This document shows, one piece after another, positions 33,001 to 57,000 of a stretch of 64,000 nucleotides of DNA (positions within the stretch are counted from its first letter, which is position 1; each line of letters starts with the position of its first letter). Source of the DNA: Pirellulales bacterium (GTDB taxonomy: Bacteria; Planctomycetota; Planctomycetia; Pirellulales; PALSA-1355); contig CAVTBU010000006.1 of assembly GCA_963733035.1 (NCBI GenBank), positions 416,001 through 480,000 on the forward strand, in the 5' to 3' direction. Made by a program: the position numbers.

Positions 33001-36000
33001 TTGCCCGACGGCCGATTCTGCCGGTTTTGGCCCTTATTCCAACGACCCTTTGCGAGATCTCGCATGAGTCAGGTTCCCGCTGAGCATCGAGCTACCGCCC
33101 CCGATCGGGTCACCTGCGCCGTCGTTACGGTGAGCGATACCCGGACACCCGAGACCGACACCGGCGGCCAGGCGGTCCACGACTTGCTGGTTGCGGCGGG
33201 CTTCGAAGTGACGGACCGGGAAATCATCCGCGACGAACCCGAACTGATGCAACTGCTCCTGGAGCGTTTTCGAGACGACCAGGCGGTCGACGCCGTACTG
33301 CTCACGGGCGGTACCGGCCTGAGCAGCCGCGATCAGACGTACGAGACCGTCAACTCGCTGCTCACCAAGGCGCTGCCCGGCTACGGCGAACTGTTTCGCA
33401 TGCTGAGCTATCAGGAGGTTGGTGCCGCCGCCATGCTCAGTCGAGCCGCAGCCGGACTCATGCAACGCACGGTAGTAATGACCATGCCAGGGTCACCCGG
33501 CGCGGTACGGTTGGCAATGGAAAAGCTCATTGTCCCCGAGCTCCGGCATCTTGTCCGCGAAGCCCGCCGCTAGCACTGGCGCATGGGCAAAACTGCCCTG
33601 GAGCCAACGCGGGCATTCGTTTAACGTACCCGCCCCAATTCTGCCTGCTAGCGACCAGGACTGCAGGAGGTAGTCCACGCAGGGGCAGCTTGAGTTACTC
33701 GTGCCCACGGAGGGGCTTCCATGCGCCGATTCGTGCTGCTCGTTGCCGGGCTAGCGGTTGCCGCCGGCGGCTGGCTATTTTCGCAGAACTTCAAGATCGA
33801 GGGGCTTGAGAATCTTTCGCTCTCGCCACGCGGTGTGGGCAACCCCGATCAAGGCTACAACGCCAATTTGCCAGGGGTCGCACGAAACGGCAATTCCATT
33901 CGCATCGCGTCGTTCAATATCCAGGTGTTCGGCGAGAAGAAGCTGTCGAAACCTCGCGTGACGGCGCTGCTAGCCGAAATTGTGCGTCAGTTCGACATCG
34001 TGGCGATCCAAGAGGTTCGCTCGAAGCAGGACATCATGCCACAGTTCATCGACCAGGTGAACGCGACGGGCAGGCACTACGACTATGTCATTGGTCCGCG
34101 GCTCGGGCGCACGTCGAGCAAGGAACAATATGTATTCGTGTTCGACACGGCTAGCATCGAGATCGACCGCTCGGCACTGTACACTGTTTCCGATCCCGAC
34201 GATCTGTTGCACCGCGAGCCGCTGGTCGGTTGGTTCCGCGTGCGAGGGCCGCCGCCCAACGAAGCCTTCACCTTTTCGCTGGTCAACATTCACACCGATC
34301 CTGACGAGACCAAGCAGGAGCTCGATGCGCTGGCCGACGTATTTCGTGCGGTCCGAGACGACGGGCGGGGCGAAGACGACGTGATCATTCTCGGCGACCT
34401 AAACGTCGATGAGCAGCACCTCGGTCGCCTGGGCCAAATCTCGAACATCCATTGGGCCGTCTCAGGCGTACCCACCAATACCCGGCAAGACAAGCAATAC
34501 GACAACATCGTGTTCTCGGACATTGCCACAACCGAGTATACCGGGCGCTGGGGAGTGTTCGACATGATACGGCAATTCAACCTCACGACCGACGAGGCCC
34601 TGGAGGTTTCGGACCACATGCCAGTCTGGGCTGAGTTCAGTTTGCGCGAGGGCGGTCAGCCGGGCCGGGTGGCCGCGCGTCCGTTTGATTCGGAGACGCG
34701 ATAGGGTTTTTCGCGCTTGCGGGAATGTCGTAGACTGGCGCGTATGCAGCCCAGTCCAAGATTCTCCGCAGCGCTCGCCTACGCCTCCGAACTGCACGCC
34801 CGTCAACGGCGAAAACGGACAGAAGTTCCCTACGTGGCCCACCTGTTGGCCGTCACGTCCATCGTGCTGGAGCACGGCGGTAGTGAAGACGAAGCGATCG
34901 CCGCCCTGTTACACGACGCGGTGGAAGATCAGGGAGGCGCGCCGCGGCTAGCGGAGATCCGCCAGCGGTTTGGTGCGGCGGTCGCCGACATCGTCGACGG
35001 CTGCACCGATGCCGATATCACCCCCAAGCCGCCCTGGCGCGAGCGCAAGGACAAATACCTCGCGCATCTGCCCACCGCCAGCCGTTCCGTACAGCTCGTT
35101 TCGGCAGCCGATAAGTTGCACAACGTTCGATCGCTTTGCGAGGACTATCGCGTCAGCGGCGAAGACGTATGGCAGCGTTTCAATGGCGGCCGGGAGGGAA
35201 CGCTGTGGTACTACCGCGCCGTGCTCCAGCGTCTCGACAAGCTCGAGGGCACACCGCTAATCGCGCAGTTGACCCGCGCCATCGAAGAAATCGAGCGGTT
35301 GTCCGGGCGTTAATTCCGTCGGGCATCCATACACGCGCTTGAAATCGGGCCAGCCCTAGTGCTAGTTTGCCTTTTGTTGATGACGGGTATCGGCAGAGCC
35401 TGAGCGCGACTCAGGTATCCCAAGGGCCCCTTGCTGGTTTTTTTCCAGCAGGGGCCTTTTTTATTGGGGCAGGCATGATGGCAAGTTCAGATTTGAGATG
35501 CGTCTCCTATCACGATGTGCGCAATCAGATTTGCGACGGCGACCTGCTGTTGTATCGCCGCCGGGGACTGATTTCGATCGCCGGACGCGGCGACCACTCG
35601 CACGCCGCCAAGGCCGCCTGGTGGCGAGACGATCTTTTTTGTCTGGAAGTCCGCGAACTGCACGGAGGACGGGCCGTCACCCTCTCCAGCCAGGTGAGCC
35701 GATTCCCAGGGCACATCGACGTCTACGAAGTGAATCCCGACAACCGCTGGCCGTATTACGATCGCACGGCCGCTTGTGCCGTGATGCGGCGGCTGGCCGG
35801 CTGCCCGTACGGATATGCCGGCGTCGCCGCGGCGGCACTATTGCACTTGCCAGTCGTGCGGCTATTCACCCAGGCCGACGTGCATGATGCCGCGGCATCG
35901 GGCCGCCCTCCGTTTTGCAGCCAGGCATGCGCGATGAGCGACCGCATCGGTGGCGGCGTGGACCCGGTGCCTCACCTGGCGGACCGTCTGACATTGCCGG

Positions 36001-54000: not shown

Positions 54001-57000
54001 CTGTCTTTGCCCCACGACAACGACGACCAGCACGACCGGCGATCCGAGCACCACGACGACGACCAGCACGACGACCACGACGCCATCGCCGTGCGATTGC
54101 GTGTATCCCGGCTACTGCGGCAGCACGGCCGGCGAGTGCACGTACACCTCCTGCGCTTCGGGCAACCAGAGCCCCTCAGTCGAGTGCACGACGACCACGA
54201 CCACCACGACGACCAGCTGCGACTGCAACACCACGACCACGGCGGATCCTGGGCCAGGCTGTAGCGATTGCAGCTGGTTCGATCACCCCGTCTATGGTTG
54301 GCAGAAGACGAGCGACGGGTGCCTGGGCGATTGCAGTTGCTCGCCGCCCGGCGGCGGCAGCGGCGATTGCAGCGCTGCGAGCACGCCTTGCGTCCCCGAT
54401 CCCATCATACCGCTGCCGCCGTGCGTGGGGTCGTGCGAGTGGCTGTGTATCCCCGAGCAGGGCTGGTGGCTCCGCAGCAACGGCTGTCCCGGTTCGTCGT
54501 CGACGGGCCCTTGCTTTTGCATTCCGCCCAGCGTTCCCTGCGACGTGTGCGGAGCGCCGCTCTCCACGGGGTGTCAGAGTCCGACCACGACCACACAGCC
54601 GCCGGGCAGTTGTCCGCAGTGCTATTCGACCACGACCAGTACCACCACGACGACGACCGCGGATCCCTGCGGCACGGGCTGCTTGTGGGACGGCAGCACG
54701 AGTGGCGACTGGACACTGTCGGCGAACCATTGCAGCCCGGGATGCGACTGCCTGCCTCCCTCATATGATGCCACCGACGATTGCGAGACGGCTCACACCC
54801 AGTGCTATCCGGGCCTGACCACGACGACGACCACCACAACCACCACGACCACGACGAGCACCACCACGACAACCGCGGAGCCCTGGTGGTGCGTGACCGC
54901 CGGCGGATGCGACGAGGCGAGCTGCCTGCAGGGGCAGGAATCGGACTTCTCCAGCATCACGATCTGTAGCGGTCCGCATGCCGACGAGGCGACGTGCATC
55001 GCCGATCCCTGCCCGCAGCCCACCACGACGACCACGACGACGACTTCCACTACCACGACGCCTGCTCCCTACTGGTGTTGTGACGATGGGCTGGGCGGCG
55101 TATGCGTTCAAGAATCCGGCGGGCCATGCAGCGGCTACAGCGGGACGCTCAGCGGGCCTTACGCGGATTCCACAGCCTGCGCCGCGGCCTGTGACACCAC
55201 CACAACGAGCACAACCACCACGACCACCTGCGATCCGCTTAACGATTGCACCGCCGGTCCCAGCCAGTGCGCGGTCGCCTGTAACAACTTCGTCTACGAG
55301 GTGACCGATCTGTGCATCGCCAACGGCAATGGCTGCGTGTGCGATTTGCCGCCGGACGCGATCGCCGTCCTGGGACAACCGTGCACGGAGGCTTATGGAA
55401 TTTACTCATGCTGCAATCAGTGCCCGGGCGCAAGCGTCTCGGTTTGCACGAATACCACCACCACGACTCCCGCCCCCTGACAAGGAGAAAAGTGTATGAC
55501 GTATCCGGCAAAAACAGCACCGGCGTCCCCGCCGAAAACAGCACCGACGCCGAAGCTAACCATCGGCCTGCCGACGTACGACGATTTCGACGGCTGCTGG
55601 TTCACCCTGCAAAGCCTGCGACTGCATCACGACATGCGCGAGGTCGAATTGCTGCTGGTCGACAACAAGCCCGACTCGCCCGGCTCGGCCGATCTGAAGC
55701 AAAAGGTCGAGGGCTGGTTCCGCCCCGGGACCGCCGGCACGCGGTACATTGCCATGCCGGGCGATGGCGGACCGGCCTTGGCGAAGGACCGCGTGTTTCG
55801 CGAGGCGGCCGGCGAGATTGTGCTCTGTCTCGACTCGCACGTGCTGCTGGCTCCCGGCGCGATCACGAAGCTGCTCCAGTGGTACGACGATCACCCGGGT
55901 AGCCACGATCTGGTGCAAGGCCCGCTCTTGCTCGATCACCTGGCCGGCGTGCACACGCATTTCATCGACACCTGGCGCGGCGAAATGTGGGGCATCTGGG
56001 GCTCGGCCTGGGAAGTCTGTCCGGGAGGCGACCGGGTGAGCGTCGTCGAGGCTGGCGGGCGCGTGCAGTATTTGGCGCTGGACATGGGGAACGTGCCACT
56101 CTCCTCCAGCGCGGTTTGCCAGCGCGAACTGCCCGCCGTGGCTTGGGCCGGTCATGAACAACATCTGCTGGCTGCCGGCCTGCGGCCGCTGGGGCTGGCC
56201 GACAACGACGAATTTGAGATCCCCGGCATGGGCTGCGGCTTGATCAGTTGCCGGCGGCAGGCCTGGCCCGGTTTCAACGAGCACTTCCGTGGCTTCGGCG
56301 GTGAGGAGATGTACCTGCATGAGAAGTTCCGGCAGCGCGGCGACCGCTGCCTCTGCCTGGGGTTCCTCAAATGGGTGCACAAGTTCGCGCGGCCTGGCGG
56401 CGTCAAGTATCCGCTCACGCGCTGGAACAAGGTCCGCAACTATGTGCTGGGACATCAGGAATTGGGCCTGCCGCTCGAGCGCGCGCACGAGCATTTCGTG
56501 GGTGGCAAATTAATGAGCGAGCGGCAGTGGGAGTATTTGCTGGCCGATCCAATCGGCCACACGAGCGAGCCGGCCGCGCAAGCGCCCGGGACCATCGACG
56601 AGCTCTACGAGCAGGTGCAGGCCACGAAGTGGAGTTTGGACCAGCACATGCCGGCGCTTCGGGCGCTCGCCGAGCAATGCGAGCACGTGACCGAGTTTAG
56701 CCACACCCGCGAGTCCTTGGTGGCGCTGGCGGCCGGCAGTCCCGCGGCGATGATCTCGTACAACGTCGATCGACAGGCACCCGCCGCGGCGGCGCTCTGT
56801 CCCTACGTGGAATTGCAAACCGTCGATTCGCCCGAGGTGCCCGCGATCGACGAGACCGACCTGTTGTTCCTCGACACCAAACATACCCGCGCCCGCCTGG
56901 CCGAGGAGCTGGAAAGATTCGCCCTCCAGGTGCGGCGCTACATCGTGCTCCATGACACGGCCCTGCACGGCAGCCGCGGTGAAGACGGGGGCGCGGGCCT

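What a model noticed while it worked through the whole genome (the two positions that open the first line are those of the whole stretch)
35475..55480. Order-wide fixed phage head-packaging cluster
C6:451475-463174 (g03601-g03618) is a phage-derived head-and-DNA-packaging gene set. It encodes a ClpP/crotonase-like protein, a trypsin-like protease, a ParB-like nuclease, a P-loop/GNAT protein, small and large terminase, a lambda-type portal, a cement/decoration protein and the major capsid protein. It has no integrase, replication or lysogeny genes. It is not a prophage of this strain. It is a single-copy, vertically inherited locus shared by most Pirellulales, often at the same chromosomal site, between moaB/exo-endo-phosphatase (g03598-99) and the HTH gene g03633. 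I read it as a candidate domesticated, GTA-like particle system. In this family (PALSA-1355) a tail-tube module, g03619-g03 [...]
Evidence so far: Capsid g03617 matches 59 of 81 sampled Pirellulales genomes (G000 included), in 26 of 30 families. Misses are mostly clade-wise (f6 0/4, f15 0/4, f11 0/2, f7 0/1) but include 2 of 4 other genomes of its own family. Most hits are one full-length copy at 45-66% identity, with no internal stops in the full-length hits. TerL g03609 is found in 30 of 30 rechecked genomes. Five capsid-negative genomes are also TerL-negative. Only 2 of 120 other Planctomycetota genomes match TerL at E<=1e-20. The TerL tree groups genomes by GTDB family about as well as GyrB does; Mantel rho is 0.39, reached by 6 of 5000 permutations, on 29 genomes (2 long or partial rows dropped). 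TerL dN/dS is 0.13-0.24 in 6 pairs [...]
(Added by a program. Inside this text positions count along the whole contig: contig position 416,001 is position 1 of the stretch shown here. "Call 12" and the like, gene names such as g00115 and contig names such as C1 are that model's own, and its searches are not shown. The text may have been shortened before it was handed on; [...] marks where a part breaks off. The agent that wrote the report below was given it as the finding of a first reader that could run no searches.)

Follow-up and report, generated by a model that had tools for sequence, protein, structure and literature searches.

The report
Domesticated phage capsid locus in Pirellulales
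A set of phage genes for building capsids and filling them with DNA has been kept and passed down in the chromosomes of most Pirellulales bacteria, so the host probably uses it, perhaps to move DNA between cells, though nobody has yet seen the particles.

Summary
The gene row is real. On the + strand from 35.4 to about 58.3 kb lie crotonase-like, trypsin-like, ParB-like and P-loop/GNAT genes, TerS, TerL, a lambda-type portal, a prohead protease-scaffold (identified here), decoration and capsid genes, then a tail-tube block. There is no integrase, tRNA or att repeat.

TerL occurs in 137/201 and capsid in 133/201 sampled Pirellulales genomes (27/30 families), nearly always as open full-length frames. 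It occurs in only 6/249 other Planctomycetota, at 31-42% identity. Identity falls with taxonomic distance. The flanks (moaB/EEP and M20) recur, and five cluster-free relatives have an empty site. In 13/72 genomes the packaging and head halves lie 6.6-870 kb apart or inverted; most frames stay open.

This argues against an ordinary prophage and for a domesticated, vertically inherited particle system. 'Fixed' and 'single-copy' overstate it: whole families lack it, and same-genus genomes also carry a related integrase-bearing prophage. A tail tube was found in only 28/201 genomes, so GTA-like delivery is plausible for some families only.

The window's own copy has 19 frameshifts, 11 of them in the capsid gene. 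About 30% of host genes in this assembly are frameshifted too, so assembly error is the likelier cause. Function is untested.

The parts
32968..33573 (+). moaB-like gene (MoCF_biosynth). Host gene of the left flank, not part of the element.
   Evidence: Pfam 1.3e-30. Found upstream of the cluster in many related loci.
33721..34704 (+). Exo_endo_phos family gene (EEP). Host gene of the left flank.
   Evidence: Pfam 4.6e-11. It or moaB lies upstream of the cluster in 16 of 29 loci that have 10 kb of upstream flank. In 5 cluster-free relatives it lies 2.0-8.8 kb from M20.
34717..35313 (+). HD_4 phosphohydrolase. Whether it belongs to the element is uncertain.
   Evidence: Pfam 2.9e-25, phrog_990 2.1e-21. 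Lies next to the crotonase-like gene in L009, L008, L010 and L011, and inverted in L006.
35367..36053 (+). ClpP/crotonase-like protein. First gene of the conserved row.
   Evidence: phrog_1128 1e-6 only. No Pfam, NCBIfam or PDB match. Conserved in position across families and in the paralogous prophage.
36057..37313 (+). Trypsin-like serine protease.
   Evidence: Trypsin_2 7.7e-18. MarP-family-like 1.4e-16, below that model's cut-off.
37329..38189 (+). Conserved protein of unknown fold.
   Evidence: 80-87% identical within family f1 and 34-40% in other families and the prophage copy. Invariant residues H104, E142, Q145, H146, N149 (alignment A2). Model pLDDT 66, helical. No match by fold or sequence.
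38221..38472 (+). Small conserved ORF, 83 aa.
   Evidence: 76-80% identity to L006, L002 and L094. phrog_1009 1e-4.
38506..39063 (+). ParB-like nuclease-domain protein. Intact.
   Evidence: phrog_498 4.8e-10, phrog_620 3.5e-7. No frameshift.
39071..40178 (+). P-loop ATPase + GNAT acetyltransferase. Two frameshifts in the window, near 39354 and 39482.
   Evidence: The intact L006 orthologue matches phrog_11143 at 1.8e-100, plus Acetyltransf_1 and AAA_16. Frameshifts.
40175..40648 (+). Small terminase subunit.
   Evidence: phrog_4102 6.1e-15.
40645..42255 (+). Large terminase subunit. Intact.
   Evidence: phrog_38 1.1e-76, Terminase_6C. 137/201 genomes of the order. Nearest isolated phages 33-37% identical.
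42334..43811 (+). Portal, lambda family. One frameshift near 43328.
   Evidence: PF05136 at 4.4e-13 in the window and 1.7e-19 in intact L006. Frameshift.
44142..45091 (+). Prohead protease (N-terminal part) fused to a scaffold-like helical tail. One frameshift near 44476.
   Evidence: Alignment A3 of 13 sequences, invariant H62, S120, H121. Model pLDDT 77.7. Foldseek top hits are T4 gp21 (5jbl), E 3e-5 to 6e-5, probability 1.0.
45097..45627 (+). Head decoration/cement protein.
   Evidence: Phage_cement_2 4.3e-9, phrog_122 2.2e-6.
45689..46850 (+). Major capsid protein. Carries 11 single-base indels unique to the window.
   Evidence: Phage_capsid_4 1.4e-11 on intact L006. Frameshift-aware alignment gives 84% identity with 11 events. 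DNA alignment A1. 133/201 genomes of the order.
46959..47488 (+). Two small ORFs, 46959-47174 and 47171-47488. Probably head-tail joining proteins, by position only.
   Evidence: 85% and 60-64% identity to relatives. Weak homologues of the second lie downstream of the capsid in L014, L028, L032, L040 and L058.
47521..48084 (+). Unknown ORF. One frameshift near 47724.
   Evidence: No family match.
48081..49394 (+). DNRLRE/CBM96-domain protein, possibly a carbohydrate-binding virion appendage.
   Evidence: NF033679 3.4e-16, CBM96 1.5e-8. Other families have a Laminin_G_3 protein in the same place.
49414..50331 (+). Tail tube protein. Three frameshifts.
   Evidence: PF18906 1.3e-25 and phrog_290 1.7e-29 on intact L006. 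Frameshifts. 28/201 genomes of the order.
50359..53474 (+). Four or five unknown ORFs of the tail-side block (50359-51087, 51127-51477, 51312-52076, 52057-52959, 52956-53474).
   Evidence: Conserved and collinear in G017, G090, G163 and G060. No family match. No tape-measure-sized ORF seen.
53510..55480 (+). 656-aa protein with threonine-rich repeats. A variable segment.
   Evidence: Repeat families D1-D3. The segment is shorter or replaced in G060.
55496..58338 (+). Two GT2 glycosyltransferase genes, 55496-57457 and 57454-58338.
   Evidence: Pfam 3.5e-9 and 5e-7. The first has a 67% DNA match inside the paralogous prophage of G090 at C1:106857-108645.
58351..58893 (+). Unknown ORF that marks the right edge.
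   Evidence: 29-36% homologues lie 1-2 kb after the capsid gene in L027, L033, L037, L041, L042, L046, L087 and L092.
61560..62801 (+). M20 peptidase. Host gene of the right flank.
   Evidence: Pfam 3.1e-13. 70% homologue directly after the cluster in L087, family f8. Collinear in G060, G163 and G017.

Best explanation
This is the morphogenesis half of an old temperate siphophage. It comprises accessory proteases and nucleases, TerS/TerL, portal, prohead protease-scaffold, decoration and capsid, and in some families neck and tail-tube genes. It became immobile in an early Pirellulales ancestor between moaB/EEP and an M20 peptidase gene. Since then it has been inherited vertically and kept by selection.

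Inferred mechanism:
1. Under some signal the host expresses the row.
2. Capsid protein assembles on the portal with the scaffold tail of the protease.
3. The gp21-like protease matures the shell.
4. TerS/TerL, probably helped by the ParB-like nuclease, cut and pump DNA into it. That DNA can only be host DNA, because the element has no replication or excision functions.

In families that have the tube block (f1, f22, f24) the product may be a tailed, GTA-like transfer particle. In most families the product can at most be a tail-less, DNA-filled head with neck proteins.

Shown here: gene identities, distribution, synteny, constraint, and absence of mobility genes. Inferred only: expression, particle formation, what is packaged, release and delivery.
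For: Gene content.

Constraint:
- TerL is in 137/201 and capsid in 133/201 genomes of the order.
- By my hand count, about 94 of 103 near-full-length TerL matches have no internal stop.
- Only G064 has a stop among the near-full-length capsid matches.
- Capsid is 55-79% identical across other families, yet has no match in 50,697 isolated phage records.

Vertical descent:
- TerL identity to the window is 73-77% in the same genus (3 genomes) and 63-73% in other genera of the family.
- It is at most 66% in other families and clusters by family: f28 63-66%, f12 58-65%, f20 46-60%.
- Flanking host proteins diverge in step. L009: moaB 74, EEP 78, TerL 73. L022: 55, 52, 62. L087: 57, 60, 60, with M20 at 70.
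- Outside the order TerL reaches only 31-42% identity, in 6/249 genomes.

Same site:
- moaB and/or EEP lie upstream in 16 of 29 loci with 10 kb of upstream flank, and in L080, L086, L087 and L090.
- M20 lies on the right in L087 and in f1 genomes.

Not a prophage:
- No integrase lies within 40 kb of TerL in 9 of 10 near-complete or complete genomes from 7 families, nor beside the main cluster in the five f1 genomes searched (none on its contig in G060, G090 and G017; nearest 139 kb from the window in G000 and 34 kb from TerL in G192).
- No att repeats and no tRNA.
- IMG/VR holds the locus as 'provirus' in 4 of the 5 records checked (the fifth is classed 'linear'), at only 39-52% estimated completeness.
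- In 13 of 72 genomes with TerL and capsid on one contig the two are 6.6-870 kb apart or inverted (hand tabulation).
- In five f19 genomes both halves keep open frames. TerL+portal and protease+capsid stay together in four; in G105 the portal goes with the head half.
- Host-like genes on the opposite strand are inserted between portal and protease in L022 and L086.
Against: - No expression, particle, packaging or transfer data exist.
- No lysis gene was found in the window.
- No tape-measure-sized ORF follows the tube gene in the window.
- The PF18906 tube is in only 28/201 genomes and in none of the 82 sampled from f12, f19, f20, f8, f28, f29 and f30. A delivery device is therefore missing in most carriers.
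- The locus is dispensable. Neither TerL nor capsid was found in f15 (0/15 each), and 5 of 15 genomes of the window's own family lack both, with a clean empty site. An empty site is also what excision of a mobile element leaves.
- A related element with an integrase exists in G090, and G000 holds a relic of one. The lineage is therefore not wholly immobile.
- G174 has a weak integrase-family hit (3e-8) about 6.5 kb beyond the cluster.
- The window's own copy carries 19 frameshifts.
- Trees, Mantel test and dN/dS were not re-run.
Confidence: 0.55

Rival explanations
1. Tail piracy or interference. The conserved head-and-packaging set works like an immobilised capsid-forming satellite (cf-PICI-like). 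It makes its own DNA-filled heads with neck proteins. These either join tails made by infecting or resident phages, or are released tail-less and meet tails outside the cell. The benefit to the host would be phage interference, transfer of host DNA, or both.
For: - Most carriers lack a tube gene anywhere in the genome by PF18906 (0/15 f12, 0/14 f19, 0/13 f20, 0/11 f8).
- Several of them keep neck genes after the capsid: Tail_completion_gp17 in L085, L093 and L014, and a Phage_attach-like protein in L014.
- cf-PICIs encode capsid, protease, portal, head-tail connectors, a nuclease (HNH), TerS and TerL and no tail genes (10.1101/2022.09.08.507074, abstract and passages).
- cf-PICIs release tail-less DNA-filled capsids that join foreign tails (10.1101/2025.02.11.637232, abstract).
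- Here a ParB-like nuclease sits where the HNH gene sits there.
- Related tailed prophages exist in the same genus.
Against: - No int, alpA or rep genes, and no sign of horizontal spread. It is therefore not a satellite in the defined sense.
- No known defence family was detected.
- The phrog_22694 protein that follows gp17 in L085 and L093 could itself be an unrecognised tube protein.
- No data on tails or helper phages.
Confidence: 0.2
2. A site-specific temperate phage or satellite family that still moves and has co-diverged with its hosts, always landing at the same site.
For: - IMG/VR classes 4 of the 5 related records checked as proviruses.
- A paralogous cluster with the same gene order lies about 13 kb from an integrase in G090, and a TerL relic lies 1 kb from an integrase fragment in G000.
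- The empty site in 5 same-family genomes and patchy presence within genus g5, 2/5.
- A weak integrase-family hit near the cluster in G174.
Against: - No integrase within 40 kb in 9 of 10 complete or near-complete genomes.
- No att repeats.
- Host genes abut both ends, leaving no room for replication or lysogeny modules.
- The halves are separated by up to 870 kb, with frames open in the short-read and complete assemblies.
- The highest TerL identity to any other sampled species is 77%, and identity tracks taxonomy.
Confidence: 0.08
3. The copy in this particular genome is a dying pseudogene cluster, whatever the locus does elsewhere.
For: - 19 frameshift events in 13.8 kb of cluster genes against 48 in 148 kb of host genes.
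- The capsid gene alone has 11 in 1.16 kb, about 30 times the background.
- Without the capsid there are 8 in 12.6 kb against 4.1 expected (Poisson P about 0.06, my own arithmetic).
Against: - The assembly is riddled with indels. 37 of 125 conserved host genes carry at least one frameshift against G090 (cruder counts).
- Window-specific substitutions are not raised in the capsid: 5.4%, against 7.6% for TerL, 6.1% for the unknown gene at 37329, 6.9% for portal and 5.4% for decoration.
- Read through, the capsid is 84% identical to L006. Eleven real neutral indels should come with many extra substitutions.
- Nine genes of the row have no frameshift at all.
Confidence: 0.15
4. A functionless relic that merely has not yet decayed.
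For: It has been lost cleanly many times, and no function is shown.
Against: Full-length open frames at 46-79% identity in more than 100 species-level genomes of 27 families. This is not compatible with neutral drift over that divergence.
Confidence: 0.03

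Closest known systems
Gene transfer agents, for example RcGTA of Alphaproteobacteria (features as in the abstract of PMC10883770; other GTA details are recalled)
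   Same: A phage-derived structural and packaging cluster in the chromosome without integration or replication genes. Mostly vertical inheritance over deep divergence. Long-term preservation. Parts can lie at separate loci.
   Different: No sequence relation was detected: no GTA-specific family appears among the Pfam, PHROG or NCBIfam hits. It lies in a different phylum. It has extra conserved genes (crotonase-like, trypsin-like, ParB-like, P-loop/GNAT). Most carriers have no tail tube. Production, random packaging and transfer, which define a GTA, are untested.
Capsid-forming PICIs (cf-PICIs): 10.1101/2022.09.08.507074 (abstract and passages) and 10.1101/2025.02.11.637232 (abstract)
   Same: Encodes its own capsid, protease, portal, connectors, an accessory nuclease, TerS and TerL, but in most carriers no tail.
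   Different: No int, alpA or rep genes. Fixed at one chromosomal site and inherited vertically. Some families do have a tube block. No helper phage is known.
Temperate siphophage heads built on the lambda plan, and the integrase-bearing paralogous element in G090 (C1: about 102.7-137.3 kb)
   Same: The order TerS-TerL-portal-protease/scaffold-decoration-capsid-neck-tube. Lambda-family portal. The paralogue shares crotonase-like, trypsin-like and unknown-37329 homologues, TerS, TerL, portal, protease, decoration, capsid and tube at 26-52% identity, plus a GT2 gene.
   Different: The main cluster has no integrase and no long tail ORFs; the paralogue has ORFs of 753, 555, 717 and 644 aa. No ParB or GNAT hit was seen in the paralogue. 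TerL is only 33-37% identical to any isolated phage, and the capsid has no match there.

Membership tests
Gene transfer agent (functional class) | Phage-like structural cluster in the host chromosome that lacks integration, replication and lysogeny genes | tested here: met
   Host genes abut both ends.
Gene transfer agent (functional class) | Vertical inheritance and purifying selection across a clade | tested here: met
   Identity tracks taxonomy and the flanking genes, and frames are open in more than 100 genomes. dN/dS and tree congruence were not re-run.
Gene transfer agent (functional class) | A complete particle with a delivery device (tail) | tested here: inconclusive
   A tube gene lies beside the cluster in f1, f22 and f24. 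It was not found in 173 of 201 genomes. No tape measure was recognised in the window.
Gene transfer agent (functional class) | Particles are produced, package random host DNA and transfer it to recipients | not testable with these tools
   Needs culture work. Only one public run holds 6% of the sampled words.
RcGTA-type (alphaproteobacterial) GTA gene family | Sequence homology to the RcGTA head-tail genes | tested here: not met
   No GTA-named family among the Pfam, PHROG or NCBIfam hits. The nearest TerL relatives in isolated phages are Pseudomonas, Ralstonia and Burkholderia phages.
cf-PICI phage satellite | int, alpA and rep genes; an inducible mobile island | tested here: not met
   No integrase near the cluster. 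The flanks are host genes. Descent is vertical.
cf-PICI phage satellite | Own capsid, protease, portal, connectors, nuclease, TerS and TerL, with no tail genes | tested here: met
   Met in the tube-less families. Not met in the window's own family, which has a tube.
Intact temperate prophage | Recombinase, att sites and one contiguous genome | tested here: not met
   13 of 72 genomes have the halves apart.
Prohead serine protease of the T4 gp21 / herpesvirus-protease fold (gene 44142-45091) | The fold, plus conserved His and Ser | tested here: met
   Foldseek 5jbl E 3e-5, probability 1.0, TM 0.52-0.59 on the target. Invariant H62, S120, H121 in 13 sequences. That these are the catalytic residues is inferred.
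Known anti-phage defence systems (PADLOC) | Match to a system-specific model | tested here: not met
   Only domain-level hits to a protease domain and an ATPase domain.

The most novel reading that the evidence does not exclude
Most Pirellulales keep a chromosomally fixed machine that makes DNA-filled phage heads with necks but no tails. Its packaging and head halves work in trans even when they lie hundreds of kilobases apart. The heads are either released tail-less or armed with tails stolen from phages. This would be a host-owned, vertically inherited counterpart of capsid-forming satellites, distinct from all known GTAs, and the first such system in the PVC bacteria.
Probability: 0.2. Interest if true: 0.9.

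Novelty: new variant of a known kind. Interest (0 to 1): 0.72.

Why it matters
- Only a handful of independent phage domestications into particle systems are known (recalled). This would add one in Planctomycetota.
- The cluster reaches back to the common ancestor of most families of an order.
- Natural variants exist with a tube, without a tube, and with the halves split. Comparing them shows which parts selection keeps.
- Cultured carriers exist (Adhaeretor mobilis HG15A2, Bythopirellula polymerisocia Pla144, and Blastopirellula marina DSM 3645 for a divergent tailed form). The question of what tail-less, terminase-equipped heads do for a cell can therefore be tested directly.
- If the particles carry DNA, they could become a gene-delivery tool for a phylum that is hard to manipulate.
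- Three full-text searches (listings only) found no paper describing such a system in Planctomycetes.

Tried and rejected
- Public reads. One run holds only 0.06 of the sampled words. Its short contigs, once laid, cover none of the frameshift sites and show no indels. There is therefore no verdict on assembly error from reads.
- tRNA scan: none. Direct repeats around the cluster: only chance-level imperfect pairs and the threonine-codon repeats.
- A GC3 filter for calling ORFs downstream of the capsid was too strict and was dropped. It was replaced by the longest non-overlapping ORFs of at least 100 aa.
- Two cruder frameshift counts based on tblastn pieces gave 16 in 142 kb over 116 genes and 28 in 158 kb over 138 genes. 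They were superseded by the frameshift-aware alignment.
- A conserved in-frame stop or read-through in the protease gene was considered when four alignment calls failed on stop codons in that gene's hits. It was rejected: the stops lie upstream of the true start, M-x-E-x-LQEFV.
- ParB as a split gene was rejected. It is an 83-aa gene followed by an intact ParB gene.
- The unknown gene at 37329: no PDB match by sequence or by fold.
- The crotonase-like protein and the capsid: no PDB sequence match. The protease profile has no PDB sequence match either.
- PADLOC: no defence system.
- Atlas look-up of the phrog_22694 protein: only unnamed clusters, partly viral.
- Trees, label-change tests, Mantel test and dN/dS were planned but not done, because the script machine was lost.
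The recurring right-flank genes I found are the ORF at 58351-58893 and the M20 peptidase.

Full report
WHAT IS THERE

From 35.4 kb the window carries a tightly packed + strand row. Pfam, PHROGs and NCBIfam identify these genes:
- A crotonase-like protein, 35367-36053. The only support is phrog_1128 at 1e-6.
- A trypsin-like protease, 36057-37313.
- A conserved unknown gene, 37329-38189.
- An 83-aa ORF, 38221-38472.
- A ParB-like nuclease-domain protein, 38506-39063.
- A P-loop ATPase fused to a GNAT domain, 39071-40178. The intact orthologue matches phrog_11143 at 1.8e-100.
- TerS, 40175-40648.
- TerL, 40645-42255.
- A lambda-family portal, 42334-43811.
- A decoration protein, 45097-45627.
- The major capsid protein, 45689-46850.
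- Two small ORFs and one further unknown ORF (47521-48084).
- A DNRLRE/CBM96 protein, 48081-49394.
- A tail tube protein, 49414-50331.
- Several unknown ORFs.
- A 656-aa threonine-repeat protein, 53510-55480.
- Two GT2 glycosyltransferases, up to 58338.

The unnamed gene between portal and decoration (44142-45091) is a prohead protease with a helical scaffold-like tail. A 13-sequence alignment has invariant H62, S120 and H121. The model has pLDDT 77.7. Its only significant structural matches are the three chains of T4 gp21, 5jbl (E 3e-5 to 6e-5, probability 1.0). The head module is therefore complete.

The window has no tRNA. No integrase-family match falls in it; the nearest on the contig is 139 kb from the window. 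There are no att-like repeats. GC content is 0.62-0.655 in the row against about 0.60 on the left flank.

DISTRIBUTION

TerL matches 137 of 201 sampled genomes of the order at E<=1e-10. An intact relative's capsid matches 133 of 201. Each is found in 27 of 30 families. Neither was found in f7 (0/1), f11 (0/2) or f15 (0/15). Few genomes have them in f4 (3/15 and 4/15) and f6 (3/15 and 1/15). In f24 only a divergent form occurs (TerL about 43% over part of its length, capsid 36-39%). In the window's own family each is in 9 of 15 genomes.

Outside the order, 6 of 249 Planctomycetota genomes match TerL at E<=1e-20, all at 31-42% identity.

CONSTRAINT

By my count of the table, about 94 of 103 near-full-length TerL matches have no internal stop; the other 9 have one. 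Among the near-full-length capsid matches only G064 has a stop. Capsid is the best conserved gene, at 55-79% identity across other families. Yet it has no match at E<=1e-5 in 50,697 isolated phage records. TerL is at most 37.5% identical to anything in that collection.

VERTICAL DESCENT AND A FIXED SITE

TerL identity to the window is:
- 73-77% in the three same-genus genomes.
- 63-73% in other genera of the family.
- At most 66% elsewhere, with narrow family-specific ranges.

In 71 loci fetched around TerL relatives the order crotonase-like, trypsin-like, ParB, GNAT, TerS, TerL, portal, protease, decoration, capsid recurs.

moaB and/or EEP lie upstream in 16 of the 29 loci that have 10 kb of upstream flank. 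The other 13 include one rearranged locus (L026) and six gut-derived loci without these flanks. Four further labelled genomes also have the flank.

In L087 (family f8) both flanks are present: moaB-EEP on the left, and the 58351-like ORF followed by M20 (70% identical) on the right. Flank proteins and cluster proteins diverge together. Within family f1 the whole stretch through the tail block, GT2 genes, the 58351 ORF, the PolB-exonuclease-like gene, TfoX and M20 is collinear in G163, G017 and G060.

NOT A PROPHAGE

- In ten complete or near-complete genomes of seven other families, nine have no integrase-family match within 40 kb of TerL. G174 has a weak one (3e-8) about 6.5 kb beyond the row.
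- IMG/VR holds 27 related contigs. Of the five I checked, four are classed provirus and one linear, and all five are estimated only 39-52% complete. That is what a structural half of a phage would give.
- Most telling is the spacing of TerL and capsid. In 72 genomes where both lie on one contig, 59 have the normal 3.2-11 kb spacing. In 13 (families f8, f19, f20, f25, f26) they are 6.6-870 kb apart or inverted. This is my hand tabulation.
- In five f19 genomes, TerL+portal and protease+capsid each stay together in G174, G184, G042 and G193. In G105 the portal travels with the head half. The frames are open except for single TGA stops flagged inside the TerL matches of G174 and G184 and the portal match of G193, which is also in two pieces.
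- Four of the 13 split cases are few-contig assemblies whose genes are in pieces, so for those intactness is unclear (G087, G114, G154, G175).
- Insertions at the portal/protease junction hold opposite-strand host-like genes in L022 and L086. In Adhaeretor mobilis (L022) the insertion also holds an Amidase_2 gene.

LIMITS TO 'FIXED' AND 'SINGLE COPY'

Five same-family genomes of 96-99% completeness lack both TerL and capsid. In all five, EEP and M20 sit on one contig, on the same strand, 2.0-8.8 kb apart, against 26.9 kb in the window. The locus is therefore dispensable and is lost whole.

Same-genus genomes G090 and G017 hold a second cluster with the same order at 26-52% identity. That cluster has its own tube gene and long tail-side ORFs. 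In G090 an integrase lies about 13 kb beyond the tube (phrog_1, 2e-22). It is probably a real prophage of the ancestral lineage. G000 keeps only a TerL fragment of this kind, 1 kb from an integrase fragment on contig C4.

The crotonase-like, trypsin-like and unknown-37329 genes and one GT2 gene are shared with that prophage. They are therefore phage genes and not host flank.

TAILS

PF18906 tube genes occur in 28 of 201 genomes: f1 8/15, f22 7/14, f24 6/14, f25 2/12, f18 1/1, f6 2/15 and f4 1/15. In f1, f22 and f24 they lie about 8-9 kb from TerL. None was found in f12, f19, f20, f8, f28, f29 or f30.

Downstream of the capsid the tube-less families have some or all of:
- A small ORF.
- A Laminin_G_3 lectin-like protein.
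- ORFs of 132 aa and about 215 aa.
- Tail_completion_gp17.
- A phrog_22694 protein.

Host genes follow directly, either an FMO-like monooxygenase or M20. These families therefore encode heads and necks but no recognised tube.

THE WINDOW'S OWN COPY

A frameshift-aware alignment of 15 intact G090 (L006) proteins to the window finds 19 frameshift events:

| Gene | Events |
|---|---|
| GNAT | 2 |
| Portal | 1 |
| Protease | 1 |
| Capsid | 11 |
| ORF at 47521 | 1 |
| Tube | 3 |
| The other nine genes | 0 |

The same method was applied to host genes. The reference was ORFs of at least 100 aa from 14 stretches of a G090 contig. I removed overlapping alternative-frame ORFs and any whose best hit was under 55% identity or under 80 aa. 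That left 125 genes. They give 48 events in 148 kb, and 37 of the 125 genes are hit. The assembly is therefore indel-ridden throughout.

Without the capsid, the row has 8 events in 12.6 kb against 4.1 expected (P about 0.06, my arithmetic). The capsid is about 30-fold over background.

The DNA alignment shows 11 single-base indels unique to the window, 5 deletions and 6 insertions. Window-specific substitutions in the capsid (5.4%) are no higher than in TerL (7.6%), portal (6.9%), the unknown gene at 37329 (6.1%) or decoration (5.4%). Capsids of five close IMG/VR relatives are intact. I read the indels as local consensus error, but why they pile up in this one gene is unexplained.

READING

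The evidence fits a phage morphogenesis module captured once, early in the order, and kept for a host function that needs DNA-packaging heads. A GTA-like role is the natural guess where a tube is present. In the tube-less majority either tails come from elsewhere, as in capsid-forming satellites, or tail-less heads serve another purpose. None of this has been tested at the bench. Three literature searches (listings only) found no description of such a system in Planctomycetes.

Noticed in passing
window 45689-46850: The capsid gene carries 11 single-base indels unique to this assembly, about 30 times the assembly's own high background. Substitution divergence is normal. No common sequence context was evident by eye.
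   Followed up: partly
whole genome G000 (sampled on contig C5, 1.2-2.4 Mb): 37 of 125 conserved host genes show at least one frameshift against the same-genus genome G090. Gene calls from this assembly are therefore unreliable throughout.
   Followed up: yes
G000 contig C4:34355-36521 (L073, L074, L077): A partial second TerL (44-55% identity, residues 178-519) lies 1 kb from an integrase fragment. It looks like a relic of the paralogous prophage that is complete in G090 and G017.
   Followed up: partly
L100:2114-19967 and L075 (G090 C1: about 102.7-137.3 kb): A probable 35-kb prophage: integrase; long ORFs of 219-753 aa with no PHROG match, one of which is a GT2 homologue; tube; neck; capsid; TerL; crotonase-like. 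This is a candidate living relative of the captured phage.
   Followed up: partly
window 53510-58338: A 656-aa protein with threonine-rich repeats spaced about 180 bases apart is followed by two GT2 glycosyltransferases. It may be a glycosylated fibre. The segment varies between relatives.
   Followed up: no
window 58000-62000: GC drops to 0.56. The segment holds a PolB-exonuclease-like gene (59299-60117, minus strand), a TfoX_N-domain gene (60116-60571) and an esterase (60621-61475, minus strand). The first two are collinear in G060, G163 and G017.
   Followed up: partly
L022:13361-14167 (Adhaeretor mobilis): An Amidase_2 (N-acetylmuramoyl-L-alanine amidase) gene on the cluster strand sits in a 4.5-kb insertion between portal and protease. 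It is a possible lysis enzyme.
   Followed up: no
L079 (G192 C1: 6195000-6214999): Portal sequences appear two to three times within 8 kb, so the cluster holds a duplication or an insertion in this single-contig genome.
   Followed up: no
window 51127-52076: Two overlapping ORFs in different frames (51127-51477 and 51312-52076) follow the tube region. Relatives also switch frame here. This could be a tail-chaperone-type programmed frameshift or more indel error.
   Followed up: no
window 34717-35313: An HD_4 (RelA/SpoT-type HD) phosphohydrolase gene lies directly upstream of the row here and in L008-L011. It may be linked to the cluster or may be flank.
   Followed up: no
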